64,000 bases of DNA from Trypanosoma brucei (taxonomy: Eukaryota), in assembly GCA_000002445.1 (NCBI GenBank), contig CP000069.1, positions 1,120,001 through 1,184,000 of the forward strand, written 5' to 3'. Shown here piece after piece: positions 53,822-58,252 of the stretch. A model generated the notes under the pieces. The model searched no databases. It worked only from the letters and a program-made list of their open reading frames with translations, and was not told the DNA's origin. The stretch's first letter is position 1; the number at the start of each line of letters is the position of its first letter. A program made the position numbers and the translations under genes.

Positions 53822-55072
53822 TTAGGAGGAAGCACCACCGTTGGCCCCACCTCCGCCATTATTCAGTAGAATATTTTGGAACTTAAGCATGAGATTCATC
53901 ACTTCTGGGTCATTCATATGTTGTTGAAACGCAGAGGGGCCATTGCGTTGCACATCTTCCATGATGGCACGTAACCTTGGATTGCGTCCCGCCTCTTCTT
54001 CTTTAAATCGCTCCAATGCCTCGCGGTCGATATCTCCAAACAAACGTGTGAAATCCACATCACCTCCTGCTGAAAGCATTCCCATACCTGAACCCATCAA
54101 CCGGGCCACCTCCTCCGGATTATCGGATAAACCGCCAATACGTGAGGCCATTTGTACCACTGCCTGGTTGAACTGTGGGTTCGACATTAGGCGTGTGGCG
54201 GTCTCAACAAATTGCGGGTTCTTCATCACTTCCGCAACCTGAGAGAAATTGAACATTCCGTCTGCACCAAAAGGAGTTCCACCCATTCCCGCAGTGGCAG
54301 AGTTGCTCTGCTTTGCCTTTTCCTCCACCTGCTTCAGGTCCTCCCTGTAACGTTCATTGGTGGGATCCAACTCACATGCCTTGCTGAAGGCGTCAACAGC
54401 ACGCTGATAATTCTCTTGGTAGAAGAGGGTTGTTCCGAGTCGTGAGTATGCTTTGGCATATGTAGGACAAATTGAAATGGATCGCTCACAGTCAATAATC
54501 GCACTGCGGTAGTCCTTTAAGTGAGTGTGAGCAGCTGCTCGATTGGCGAAAAAGACGTGGTTTTCGGGTTCCATCTCAATTGCTTTGGTGTAATACGCCA
54601 CGGCTTGCTTATAGTTGGCGAGTCCCATGAGTTCATTCCCCTTGTTTTTGATCTCTTCAGCTGTCATTCCCTCATATGGGTTGTTACGCTTTTCAAACTT
54701 TTCCCTCGCTTTCTCCAGACGAGAATTATACTCCTCTGACCCCTCTTCAGCACCTGCAAAGTAACCTTTCTTACGGAGTAAATCGAGAAAGGCGTTAAAT
54801 TTATCATCCTGCTGAATGCTGACGCTTTTCTTCATTTCGTTTAGTGCCTGTTGAAAGGCTGGGAGAAGCGCAACGCCCGTGTCGTGGCAACCGCCTACAC
54901 CTGCAGGATCCACACCATATTCCTCACCTAGCAACTGCACAATGGCGGTCACACGGTCAGGTGTGGAAGTTTCAGTGGACCGTATCATTTGAATGAAGGA
55001 AAATATAAGCTTCTTATAATCTTCCGTAACAGCCTGGGGGACCGGTACAGAACCTTCAGCTGCTCCACTCAT
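53822..55072 (-). CDS. SGT: small glutamine-rich tetratricopeptide repeat protein (SGT) co-chaperone
   Basis: An N-terminal dimerisation region is followed by three TPRs (AEEIKNKGNELMGLANYKQAVAYYTKAIEMEP..., HVFFANRAAAHTHLKDYRSAIIDCERSISICP..., AKAYSRLGTTLFYQENYQRAVDAFSKACELDP). The C-terminal region is Q/M/G-rich. The ATG is at 55070..55072. Confidence 0.85.
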   Translation of the reverse strand: MSGAAEGSVPVPQAVTEDYKKLIFSFIQMIRSTETSTPDRVTAIVQLLGEEYGVDPAGVGGCHDTGVALLPAFQQALNEMKKSVSIQQDDKFNAFLDLLRKKGYFAGAEEGSEEYNSRLEKAREKFEKRNNPYEGMTAEEIKNKGNELMGLANYKQAVAYYTKAIEMEPENHVFFANRAAAHTHLKDYRSAIIDCERSISICPTYAKAYSRLGTTLFYQENYQRAVDAFSKACELDPTNERYREDLKQVEEKAKQSNSATAGMGGTPFGADGMFNFSQVAEVMKNPQFVETATRLMSNPQFNQAVVQMASRIGGLSDNPEEVARLMGSGMGMLSAGGDVDFTRLFGDIDREALERFKEEEAGRNPRLRAIMEDVQRNGPSAFQQHMNDPEVMNLMLKFQNILLNNGGGGANGGASS

Positions 55073-55619
55073 TGGTTTATTTGCGTTGATAGAGTTTTAG
55101 TTACTTGTGCGGGAAAATACCTAAAATATATAAGTACGTAAATATATTTTATGTGTGATAAGGTATGCTCAAAAATAATGGCGCACCTTCTTTACTATTG
55201 CTTTCACTAGCGCACGAAAATCCGCCGTTGAGCAAACGAGTATAAAATAATAATAATAGTTAAAAAAAGTAGGGGAAACACATGTATAAGATATCAAACA
55301 TATCCCTTCATACATTCTGTTCAATACCGTTAGCTTGCAGTGTATGAAAACCATCCACCCGTTACACCCGCATGCAAACAAACACGGACCTCTAAACAAA
55401 ATGACCAATAAGTTGACAACAAGTGAAAACGAGGAGAAAATAAAAGGAAAAAAAAAGTGTGGCTGCATTTGTCACTCAACATTGACACATTCCGCTGCAC
55501 ACTCCTGATAAAAGACGACGGGAGGGTTGTTTTTGTTTTTTGTTTTTCCTCCTCTCACCCTCTCAGTGATTGAGCGACAACTGAAGTGGCAGCCCCCTTC
55601 CCCGGCCTAAACGGACCGT

Positions 55620-55778
55620 TTATTTCTTTCCGCCCTTCATTTTCGCAATGGCCTCCTTTTCAGCCTTCTGCTGTTCGCGCATTTTATTACGAAACGCGAC
55701 GTCGTCATCGTCCAACTCTTGCCGATCCTTCTTAGGTGCTTTAAGAGGTTTTTGTTTACCACCTTGACGTGTGGACAT
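55620..55778 (-). CDS. TMA7: TMA7 family (translation machinery-associated protein 7 / CCDC72-like) small protein, 52 aa
   Basis: The ORF is absent from the six-frame track because it is under 60 aa. The reverse complement of 55620..55778 translates to MSTRQGGKQKPLKAPKKDRQELDDDDVAFRNKMREQQKAEKEAIAKMKGGKK. This matches the TMA7 consensus MSGREGGKKKPLKQPKK...E.D.E..AFK.K.KEEQKK. The ATG is at 55776..55778 and the TAA at 55620..55622. Confidence 0.75.
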   Translation of the reverse strand: MSTRQGGKQKPLKAPKKDRQELDDDDVAFRNKMREQQKAEKEAIAKMKGGKK

Positions 55779-55971
55779 GGCGAGTGGAGTTGTTGGTTAC
55801 AGCTGGTGTCGTTTGTTTTATTGCTGGTATAAGATGTTCTGCTTGGAACTTTGAGGCTTCGGAGAAACGCACTGGAAAAGATCAGGAGAAGAAAAAAAGA
55901 GAAGAATAAAATATTATTATATATATATATATTTTTGCTTTTATTAATGATCCCTCCCGCATACACACATA

Positions 55972-55974
<3 letters not shown>

Positions 55975-56012
<38 letters not shown>
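55975..56012. repeat. (AT)n microsatellite (~19 units)
   Basis: atatatatatatatatatatatatatatatatatat lies between the TMA7-like ORF and the next upstream gene. Confidence 0.85.
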
Positions 56013-56015
<3 letters not shown>

Positions 56016-56422
56016 TACGAATACGAACATGAACACGAATATTTCCACTTCCACACGCAGGCAGAAAAAAAAACACGGAGAGAAAGATAGCAAATGTAAT
56101 AGCTTCTGAGAAGCACATATTCCGGAACCACGCAGTAGCACGCAGCAGTGCGATATTTAAAAAATAATAATAATAATGAAACTGCTGCAAGCTCGGACAT
56201 TTTCACCTCCTACCACCATGGTCTTCACACACAAACACAAATACTCATGCATGTATGGACGAGTTAATATAAGAGAATAAGAATTTTCTATTCTCTCAAA
56301 AATGTTCGCCCAACCGTCGTATCTTATATATAAATATATATATATATATATTATATTATATTCAGGTGAGTCGAAAAAAAAAAAAATGACGCAACGTTCC
56401 GGTGCCAAGTCCTGTCAAGCAA

Positions 56423-56743
56423 TTACAAACTTCCCTTCAAATGGCAAGCGCCGTCAGCTTCGTGAATCTCCAATTTGTACTCCTGCACAGGGCTCAACAC
56501 ACCTGTGAATGGCGTCTCAAGGAAGGAACCATCAGCCTCCACGCGTCGGATGTGTGCCGTCATCGAAAAGGTGGTTGCTTGTACAATTTTTTGCTCCAGT
56601 TTAGCAGTTTCTCCAGGTTTTATTGTAAGGTTCACCTCCTCATCAGCCGCATCAGGAACGGCATAAAAGGCTTTAACCTTTACCTCTTTCGAAGTCAGAT
56701 TCTTCACGAGTGCGGAGTACACATGCGGAGGGGCGCGCACCAT
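56423..56743 (-). CDS. small hypothetical protein (106 aa)
   Basis: The ATG is at 56741..56743. An AG-rich PPT lies on the + strand immediately upstream (56750-56870). The protein has globular-looking composition (MVRAPPHVYSALVKNLTSKEVKVKAFYAV...). The overlapping + strand ORF 56402..56899 is low-complexity. Confidence 0.45.
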   Translation of the reverse strand: MVRAPPHVYSALVKNLTSKEVKVKAFYAVPDAADEEVNLTIKPGETAKLEQKIVQATTFSMTAHIRRVEADGSFLETPFTGVLSPVQEYKLEIHEADGACHLKGSL

Positions 56744-57460: not shown

Positions 57461-58252
57461 TTAAACGACTTGTCCAATAGCCATAAGATAATACCGCTCC
57501 GCTAAAGGCCAGTTACATGCCTTAAAATAGTTTTCAACGTATTGTTTCAACCCTGAAGTCCCGTAGTCTAAAATGTAGGCACTCTCATGAACATTCAGTG
57601 CAAGAAGGGGAATAAGATCGCTAGCGATTGGACATGAACCGTGAGGAAACTCCACCACATCAAAATGCACCCCGGACCATACCAAATACACCCAACCACA
57701 CCGTTCTTGGTGAGAAGCCGCTGTTACCCATACAATTCGGCGGACTTCATCCACTGCATCGGCGGAACCATTAGTTCCGTACTGCAGCTGTAGTGCCTCA
57801 CGTAACCGCGGTGGAGGTGCAGTACCCCATGGGCGCAGAGACTTGTAGAAGAAGCAGTAATTAAAGTGTTCCGACGCCGCAGTGTGGGCTACGGCTTGTG
57901 TAGCGTCAAAAGAAGTCTTCCGTATCACAGTTTCGAGATTGTGTCCCTCAAGTGGTGTGCCTAATGTGTGACGGTTGAGTGTTTCCACAACATCGCGATG
58001 AAAGAGGGAGTATTGCATATCGAACTGATCCTTGGAGAAAAGAGCAGGAATACCGCTCGAAACAGGGTAGTTTAATCGTGGTTGACTGAAAAATCCGGTT
58101 TCCTCTTTTGCTTTGTCAGCCCGGGCCGCAGCAGCCTCCGTCTCACGGAAAACTGCGGTTGCGATATTGGAAGGCATAAAAGTCTCTCCCATCTGAACAG
58201 ACGCGCCCTTTGGGACGTATGCATGATAACTAAGGCGCCGGCACAAACGCAT
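57461..58252 (-). CDS. Fe/Mn-superoxide-dismutase-fold protein with degenerate metal ligands and mitochondrial presequence (probable non-catalytic, mitoribosomal mS42/mS43-like)
   Basis: Both SOD domains are recognisable. The N-terminal domain reads PRLNYPVSSGIPALFSKDQFDMQYSLFHRDVVETLN and EHFNYCFFYKSL. The C-terminal domain reads GWVYLVW...LIPLLALNVHESAYILDY...YFKACNWPLAERYY, against the consensus GWvWLv...pllgiDVWEHAYYldY...fWnvvNW. The Asp of DVWEH is replaced by Asn and the ligand His by Ser. The N-terminal HH pair is reduced to one His. The N-terminus MRLCRRLSYHAYVPKG is presequence-like. Confidence 0.7.
   Translation of the reverse strand: MRLCRRLSYHAYVPKGASVQMGETFMPSNIATAVFRETEAAAARADKAKEETGFFSQPRLNYPVSSGIPALFSKDQFDMQYSLFHRDVVETLNRHTLGTPLEGHNLETVIRKTSFDATQAVAHTAASEHFNYCFFYKSLRPWGTAPPPRLREALQLQYGTNGSADAVDEVRRIVWVTAASHQERCGWVYLVWSGVHFDVVEFPHGSCPIASDLIPLLALNVHESAYILDYGTSGLKQYVENYFKACNWPLAERYYLMAIGQVV

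What the first reader, a model, noticed from the sequence alone, without database searches (positions are those of the whole stretch)
55620..55778. Unannotated 52-aa TMA7-family ORF missing from the ORF track
Reading the minus strand between the SGT gene and the (AT)n repeat gives MSTRQGGKQKPLKAPKKDRQELDDDDVAFRNKMREQQKAEKEAIAKMKGGKK. This matches the highly conserved eukaryotic TMA7/CCDC72 micro-protein (MSGREGGKKKPLKQPKK...AFK.K.KEEQKK). It is below the 60-aa ORF cutoff. The track instead shows a spurious 189-aa ORF (55637..56206) in another frame that runs through the (AT)n repeat. Such micro-proteins are often left out of gene models.
Basis: partly seen in the sequence, partly recalled or inferred. 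Interest (0 to 1): 0.55.

Follow-up and report, generated by a model that had tools for sequence, protein, structure and literature searches.

The report
Known, annotated trypanosome TMA7 micro-protein gene
The 52-codon reading frame is a real, highly translated gene for the conserved ribosome-associated micro-protein TMA7 in Trypanosoma brucei, but it has been in the public annotation since 2005 as Tb927.6.4010, so it is ordinary.

Summary
Window 55620..55778 (minus strand) encodes exactly the 52-aa peptide quoted. It hits Pfam TMA7 (PF09072) at E=1.5e-15, 58.1 bits against a cutoff of 27. The frame is under strong purifying selection: against T. cruzi, pN is 0.15 while pS is saturated at 0.80. 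It is the only conserved stretch in the 1.35-kb interval between its neighbours, and it sits in conserved synteny (SOD-like gene, small ORF, TMA7, SGT) in T. cruzi and Leishmania.

The "unannotated" part is wrong. The identical protein is GenBank AAZ11960.1, whose accession lies between those of its two neighbours. UniRef names it TMA7. It is gene Tb927.6.4010 of T. brucei TREU927 chromosome 6 (window = chr6 1,120,001-1,184,000).

Published ribosome profiling (Vasquez 2014) lists it among annotated CDSs. It has 2,110 footprint reads in the 159-nt CDS against 2 in the pseudo-3'UTR. Its ribosome release score of 1,770 is 7th in the table, and translation efficiency is about 4.2 in both life stages.

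The overlapping 189-aa ORF is spurious: no Pfam hit, no conservation, and almost no footprints.

Verdict: correct identification of an already known gene. It is missing only from a mechanical ORF list with a 60-aa cutoff. Low interest.

The parts
55620..55778 (-). CDS of TMA7 ortholog Tb927.6.4010 (52 codons plus TAA stop)
   Evidence: Translation. Pfam PF09072 at E=1.5e-15. Exact match to AAZ11960.1. 2,110 ribosome footprint reads in the CDS against 2 downstream. pN 0.154 and pS 0.80 against T. cruzi.
55779..56287 (-). Annotated 5'UTR (508-509 nt), AT-rich (35% GC), with 9 upstream ATGs and the (AT)19 repeat
   Evidence: Vasquez 2014 gives the location as Tb927_06_v4:1175620-1176287 (-) with a 5'UTR of 508 nt and 4 uORFs, none translated. 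The uORF lengths 95, 23, 236 and 86 nt (mean 110) are reproduced from the window sequence. Footprint RPKM in the UTR is 6.1 (BF) and 3.4 (PF), against 971 and 304 in the CDS.
56288..56289 (-). AG dinucleotide of the annotated (distal) spliced-leader acceptor site
   Evidence: AG lies immediately 5' of the annotated mRNA end. The site itself comes from the v4.2 annotation quoted in Vasquez 2014.
56374..56386 (-). T13 polypyrimidine tract upstream of the distal acceptor site
   Evidence: Read from the sequence. Its role is inferred from the known kinetoplastid trans-splicing signal, a polypyrimidine tract followed by AG.
55872..55906 (-). 23-nt polypyrimidine tract (55884..55906) followed by the first AG (55873..55872, 95 nt before the ATG): a candidate proximal acceptor site giving a 5'UTR free of upstream ATGs
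   Evidence: Sequence scan. Use of this site is inferred and not verified.
55975..56012 (.). (AT)19 microsatellite inside the 5'UTR
   Evidence: Tandem Repeats Finder: period 2, 19 copies, 100% matches.
55637..56206 (-). Spurious 189-aa ORF overlapping the TMA7 CDS in another frame
   Evidence: No Pfam hit. Upstream of the TMA7 ATG it has no similarity to the T. cruzi or Leishmania loci. The 5'UTR it occupies has about 160-fold (BF) and 90-fold (PF) fewer footprints than the CDS. Its translation is low-complexity, IYIYIY from (AT)n.
55392..55457 (-). Polypyrimidine tracts (55431..55457) and the next AG (55393..55392): probable trans-splice signal of the downstream SGT/PEX38 gene, which would bound the TMA7 3'UTR
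   Evidence: Sequence scan. The function and the coupled poly(A) site of TMA7 are inferred from the known coupling of polyadenylation to downstream trans-splicing in trypanosomes.

Best explanation
This is the single-copy Trypanosoma brucei ortholog of the eukaryote-wide micro-protein TMA7 (translation machinery-associated protein 7, also called CCDC72), gene Tb927.6.4010 on chromosome 6. It lies in a minus-strand polycistronic transcription unit. Its mRNA is matured by trans-splicing, with an annotated acceptor at window 56288/56287, and is translated very efficiently in both bloodstream and procyclic forms.

The product is 52 aa, of which 31% are Lys or Arg. It has an invariant basic N-terminal motif (QGGKQKPLKxPK), an acidic linker (ELDDDD), and one predicted helix (residues 24-49). 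It has no globular fold.

Shown here: the ORF, family membership, purifying selection, synteny, prior annotation, and translation in vivo. The last two rest on public database records and published ribosome-profiling tables rather than on new experiments.

Inferred: like yeast and Arabidopsis TMA7, it most likely acts by binding cytosolic ribosomes directly and tuning the rate of protein synthesis. In this model the disordered basic head lies along rRNA and the helix packs on the surface. The binding site and the step of translation affected are unknown in any organism.
For: ORF and translation. Pfam PF09072 at E=1.5e-15, 58.1 bits against a cutoff of 27. 62% identity over residues 1-29 to human TMA7, whose sequence I recalled from memory. 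20 homologs, all carrying PF09072. 14 invariant columns, 11 of them in residues 5-16, among 17 euglenozoan-type homologs.

The exact sequence is AAZ11960.1, flanked by AAZ11959.1 (SGT) and AAZ11961.1 (the 106-aa gene). UniRef names it TMA7. A gene is called at the same place in another T. brucei-group assembly, with 2 synonymous differences in the CDS and 94.5% identity across the interval.

Synteny holds in T. cruzi and Leishmania. By the Nei-Gojobori method against T. cruzi, pS is 0.80 and pN 0.154. Only the CDS is conserved within the 1,350-nt interval.

Ribosome profiling (PMC3973304): CDS 159 nt, 2,110 footprint reads against 2, release score 1,770.49, translation efficiency 4.24 (BF) and 4.06 (PF). 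AlphaFold2: residues 1-23 without regular structure, helix 24-49, pTM 0.39. Ribosome association and a translation-rate phenotype of TMA7 in yeast, and 15-fold enrichment with Arabidopsis 80S ribosomes (PMC7452503).
Against: Nothing contradicts the identity. For the mechanism, there is no T. brucei experiment on ribosome binding. No TMA7 chain exists in the PDB copy. The trypanosomatid protein lacks the C-terminal tail of the family, since the Pfam match covers only model positions 1-48 of 62, so any function of that tail is lost. Mammalian papers propose an unrelated autophagy/PI3K-mTOR role. The annotated 5'UTR has 9 upstream ATGs, which sits oddly with a translation efficiency of about 4.2.
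Confidence: 0.93

Rival explanations
1. A truly unannotated, overlooked micro-protein gene.
For: It is absent from a mechanical ORF list with a 60-aa cutoff. The GenBank product name is only 'hypothetical protein, conserved'. No paper in the searched library discusses TMA7 in trypanosomes or names Tb927.6.4010 in its main text.
Against: The exact protein has four GenBank/RefSeq accessions and a UniRef name of TMA7. It is listed as annotated CDS Tb927.6.4010 in genome version 4.2. Orthologs are annotated in at least six other kinetoplastid species.
Confidence: 0.02
2. The 189-aa ORF (55637..56206, minus strand) is the real gene, and the 52-aa frame is a chance overlap.
For: It is the longer ORF and appears in the default ORF track.
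Against: It has no Pfam hit and low-complexity IYIY translation from (AT)n. Its part upstream of the TMA7 ATG has no similarity to T. cruzi or Leishmania. The footprint density there is 6.1 and 3.4 RPKM, against 971 and 304 in the TMA7 CDS, and 0 of the 4 uORFs that the Vasquez table lists in that UTR are translated (this 564-nt ORF is not itself one of them). Substitutions against T. cruzi fit the TMA7 frame.
Confidence: 0.01
3. A chance ORF or decayed pseudogene that only resembles TMA7.
For: About 86 ATG-ORFs of at least 52 aa are expected by chance in a 64-kb shuffle.
Against: E=1.5e-15 to the family model. The frame is intact in all relatives examined, including two further T. brucei-group sequences (L001, L002), with only synonymous differences from L001. 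Purifying selection and very high translation.
Confidence: 0.01

Closest known systems
TMA7 / CCDC72 family (Pfam PF09072): yeast Tma7 (YLR262C-A), human TMA7, Arabidopsis AT1G15270
   Same: A micro-protein of about 50-65 aa. The N-terminal motif MSxRxGGKxKPLKxPKK is followed by an acidic patch and a Lys/Glu/Gln-rich helix. The Pfam score is twice the gathering threshold, and residues 1-29 are 62% identical to human TMA7. It is very highly translated, as expected of a translation-machinery component.
   Different: Trypanosomatid versions are 49-52 aa and end right after the helix. The Pfam match covers model positions 1-48 of 62. The C-terminal Gly-rich basic tail is missing. That tail is GPLATGGIKKSGKK in the human sequence, as I recalled it, and one 63-aa homolog, P0010, retains ...GGVLASAGLKKSK. 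Ribosome association has not been shown for the T. brucei protein.
Tb927.6.4010 (GenBank AAZ11960.1), the existing annotation of this very gene
   Same: Identical sequence, the same 159-nt CDS, the same chromosomal position (chr6 1,175,620-1,175,778 = window 55620-55778) and the same neighbours.
   Different: Nothing. Only the product name lags: 'hypothetical protein, conserved' in GenBank against 'TMA7' in UniRef.

Membership tests
TMA7 (Pfam PF09072) | Whole-protein score above the curated Pfam gathering threshold | tested here: met
   58.1 bits against a cutoff of 27, E=1.5e-15. Residues 3-50 align to model positions 1-48 of 62. The last 14 model positions (the C-terminal tail) are absent. 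This is a lineage difference, not a membership criterion.
TMA7 (Pfam PF09072) | Conserved N-terminal basic motif M-S-x-R-x-G-G-K-x-K-P-L-K-x-P-K-K at the very start of the protein | tested here: met
   The protein starts MSTRQGGKQKPLKAPKK. Q5-K13, P15 and K16 are invariant in 17 homologs, and 18 of 29 residues are identical to human TMA7, recalled from memory. All in-frame upstream ATGs hit stop codons, so no N-terminal extension is possible.
TMA7 (Pfam PF09072) | Free-standing micro-protein of about 50-65 aa, Lys-rich and without a globular fold | tested here: met
   52 aa, with 12 Lys and 4 Arg against 9 Asp and Glu. The AlphaFold2 model has an extended head and a single helix at residues 24-49, with pTM 0.39.
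TMA7 (Pfam PF09072) | Actually translated in vivo | tested here: met
   Published ribosome profiling: 2,110 footprint reads in the CDS against 2 after the stop codon, and footprint RPKM of 971 (BF) and 304 (PF) (PMC3973304 supplementary tables).
TMA7 (Pfam PF09072) | Physical association with cytosolic ribosomes, the property that gave the family its name | not testable with these tools
   Shown for yeast, and for Arabidopsis with 15-fold enrichment with 80S ribosomes (PMC7452503). No T. brucei data were found, and no solved structure contains a TMA7 chain.

The most novel reading that the evidence does not exclude
Trypanosomatid TMA7 is a natural C-terminal truncation. It lacks the Gly-rich basic tail conserved in opisthokonts and kept in at least one related 63-aa homolog. 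It may therefore bind the unusual kinetoplastid ribosome in a changed way, or have lost one of the family's functions. The truncation itself is shown. Any functional consequence is speculation.
Probability: 0.15. Interest if true: 0.2.

Novelty: already known. Interest (0 to 1): 0.06.

Why it matters
It matters little. The result shows that the first-stage reader can recognise a conserved micro-protein below the ORF cutoff by eye, and that a 60-aa cutoff hides real, very highly translated genes while displaying spurious longer overlapping ORFs. The gene itself has been in GenBank since the 2005 T. brucei genome, and ribosome profiling validated it in 2014. The only open biology is generic to the family: nobody knows where TMA7 sits on the ribosome or what step it affects.

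Tried and rejected
- **Solved structures:** three PDB sequence searches found no TMA7 chain. These used the T. brucei peptide, human TMA7 recalled from memory, and a profile of 17 homologs. The only hits had E of about 0.5 (a 14-3-3 protein and SOBIR1), which is chance.
- **Literature:** 'TMA7' with 'Trypanosoma' gave one irrelevant paper. 'TMA7' with 'cryo-EM' gave nothing structural. 'Tb927.6.4010' appears in no main text.
- **Supplement searches that failed:** Tb927.6.4010 was not found in Jensen 2014, Antwi 2016 (which lists only Tb927.6.4000), Ericson 2014 on the small proteome, or Nilsson 2010 on SL trapping. Siegel 2010 has no supplements held. Stored files are truncated, so absence there means nothing.
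- **N-terminally extended or spliced gene:** rejected. Every in-frame upstream ATG terminates before the CDS, and the N-terminus is conserved from Met1.
- **The 189-aa ORF as the real gene:** rejected, as set out under the rival explanations.
- **Searches not run:** I did not run the 1.84-billion-protein representative search or fold searches. The answer could not change the verdict, and the model has no fold to search with.

Full report
**Observation.** The minus strand of window 55620..55778 reads ATG...TAA. The 189-aa ORF at 55637..56206 on the same strand, in another frame, is also there. It reads through the (AT)19 microsatellite at 55975..56012 as IYIYIY.... A 52-codon ORF is not remarkable on its own. 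The window has 192 ATG-ORFs of at least that length, and shuffled sequence gives about 86. The case therefore rests on content, not length.

**Identity.** The peptide hits Pfam PF09072 (TMA7) at E=1.5e-15, with 58.1 bits against a curated cutoff of 27. Residues 3-50 align to model positions 1-48 of 62. A search of the 5.8-billion-protein collection returned 20 homologs, all carrying PF09072. Named ones come from T. b. gambiense, T. vivax, T. rangeli, T. cruzi, Strigomonas and Leishmania. In an alignment of 17 of them, Q5-K13, P15 and K16 are invariant. Residues 1-29 are 62% identical to human TMA7. The Pfam result is the test.

**Is it unannotated? No.** An exact-sequence look-up finds the protein as AAZ11960.1, CBH11901.1, RHW72106.1 and XP_011774186.1, with the UniRef name 'Translation machinery associated TMA7 n=3 Tax=Trypanosoma brucei'. 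The downstream SGT protein is AAZ11959.1 (XP_845518.1, T. b. brucei TREU927), and the upstream 106-aa protein is AAZ11961.1. The three accessions are consecutive, so the gene was called in the original chromosome 6 submission.

The supplementary tables of Vasquez et al. 2014 (PMC3973304) list Tb927.6.4010, 'hypothetical protein, conserved', at Tb927_06_v4:1175620-1176287 (-) with a 159-nt CDS. Those coordinates map onto the window with an offset of exactly 1,120,000. Position 1175620 is window 55620, the last base of the stop codon. Position 1176287 is window 56287, which is immediately preceded by an AG. The table reports four uORFs, the longest 236 nt and the mean 110 nt. The window sequence reproduces these precisely as 95, 23, 236 and 86 nt. 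The window is therefore T. brucei TREU927 chr6 1,120,001-1,184,000. Tb927.6.4000 is the SGT neighbour, Tb927.6.4020 the 106-aa gene, and Tb927.6.4030 the SOD-like gene.

**Is it a real, expressed gene? Yes, on independent grounds.**
- *Selection.* Against the T. cruzi ortholog, which has the same length and aligns without gaps, Nei-Gojobori counts give 24.75 synonymous differences over 31 sites (pS 0.80, saturated). They give 19.25 nonsynonymous differences over 125 sites (pN 0.154). Against another T. brucei-group assembly the CDS differs at 2 bases with no amino-acid change.
- *Island of conservation.* I ran blastn with the 1,350-nt stretch between the 106-aa gene and SGT. Only positions 617-804 align to T. 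cruzi and 644-788 to Leishmania, and the CDS is at 645-803.
- *Synteny.* The order SOD-like gene, small ORF, TMA7, SGT is kept in T. cruzi. It is kept in Leishmania too, with one extra 234-aa gene.
- *Translation.* In the 'annotated CDSs' sheet of Vasquez 2014, the gene has 2,110 footprint reads in the CDS against 2 in the pseudo-3'UTR. Its ribosome release score of 1,770.49 is the 7th row of the table, among histones, tubulin and ribosomal proteins. Footprint RPKM is 971 in bloodstream forms (BF) and 304 in procyclic forms (PF). Translation efficiency is 4.24 and 4.06.

**The 189-aa ORF.** It has no Pfam hit, and outside the TMA7 CDS it has no similarity to other kinetoplastids. It occupies a 5'UTR with only 6.1 (BF) and 3.4 (PF) footprint RPKM. 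None of the four uORFs that the Vasquez table lists in that UTR is scored as translated, although this 564-nt ORF is not itself among the four.

**Transcript anatomy.** All long ORFs in the window are on the minus strand, as expected for a kinetoplastid polycistronic unit. The annotated acceptor is AG at 56289-56288, with a T13 tract at 56374-56386. It gives a 508-509-nt AT-rich 5'UTR with 9 upstream ATGs. A textbook signal also lies closer: a 23-nt polypyrimidine tract at 55884-55906 and the first AG at 55873-55872, 95 nt before the ATG, with no upstream ATG in between. Given the high translation efficiency, I suspect this proximal site is also used, and perhaps predominantly. I could not check this, because no spliced-leader mapping table was reachable. 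Downstream, polypyrimidine tracts at 55431-55457 and an AG at 55393-55392 probably serve SGT and bound the TMA7 3'UTR (inference).

**How it works.** The protein is 31% Lys plus Arg. AlphaFold2 on the 17-sequence alignment gives residues 1-23 without regular structure and a single helix at 24-49. Mean pLDDT is 78 and pTM 0.39, so there is no globular fold. In yeast, TMA7 was found by ribosome co-purification, and its deletion alters the rate of protein synthesis. In Arabidopsis it is enriched 15-fold with purified 80S ribosomes. Nothing further was known about its function as of 2020 (PMC7452503). Mammalian work points elsewhere: levels drop in HBS1L-deficient retina, and one paper proposes an autophagy/PI3K-mTOR link. 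No solved structure contains it. My best inference is a ribosome-bound accessory micro-protein whose invariant basic head contacts rRNA. I put about 0.6 on this, and it is not demonstrated for trypanosomes.

**Difference from the family.** Trypanosomatid sequences are 49-52 aa and stop right after the helix. They lack the last 14 positions of the Pfam model. One 63-aa homolog, P0010, keeps a tail...GGVLASAGLKKSK. This is a small lineage-specific truncation of unknown significance.

**Verdict.** It is not novel, and interest is low.

Noticed in passing
window 53822..55072 (-): The 'SGT' neighbour (Tb927.6.4000; TPR, SGT1 and STI1-DP domains) has recently been re-described as PEX38. This is an essential Euglenozoa-specific peroxin derived from a remnant GET-pathway factor (bioRxiv 10.1101/2025.11.03.686288).
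   Followed up: partly
L003, L004, L005 (T. cruzi GCA_015033655.1, CM026638.1, about 847-865 kb): T. cruzi carries at least three identical TMA7 copies about 4.7 kb apart, in a tandem array that also repeats the SOD-like gene. T. brucei and Leishmania have one copy at the syntenic site.
   Followed up: no
window 55779..56287 (-): The annotated 5'UTR of Tb927.6.4010 has 9 upstream ATGs, yet translation efficiency is about 4.2 in both life stages. In procyclic forms the RNA density over the '5'UTR' (117 RPKM) exceeds that over the CDS (75 RPKM). This suggests the region is partly the 3'UTR of the upstream gene Tb927.6.4020, and that a proximal acceptor (AG at 55873-55872) is used.
   Followed up: partly
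window 55637..56206 (-): The 564-nt ORF starting at ATG 56200 overlaps the main CDS. It is not among the 4 uORFs counted by Vasquez et al., although their definition allows uORFs to end inside the CDS. This is a minor bookkeeping discrepancy.
   Followed up: no
window 57461..58252 (-): The 263-aa protein annotated 'superoxide dismutase, putative' (Tb927.6.4030) matches Sod_Fe_C at E=4.8e-11. It matches Sod_Fe_N only below the gathering score (20.2 bits against 27). It is a divergent SOD-like protein that may not be a catalytic SOD.
   Followed up: no
window 56423..56743 (-): The 106-aa conserved hypothetical Tb927.6.4020 has no Pfam family but is translated, with a ribosome release score of 142 in Vasquez 2014. 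Small ORFs of 114 aa (T. cruzi) and 88 aa (Leishmania) sit at the same syntenic position.
   Followed up: no
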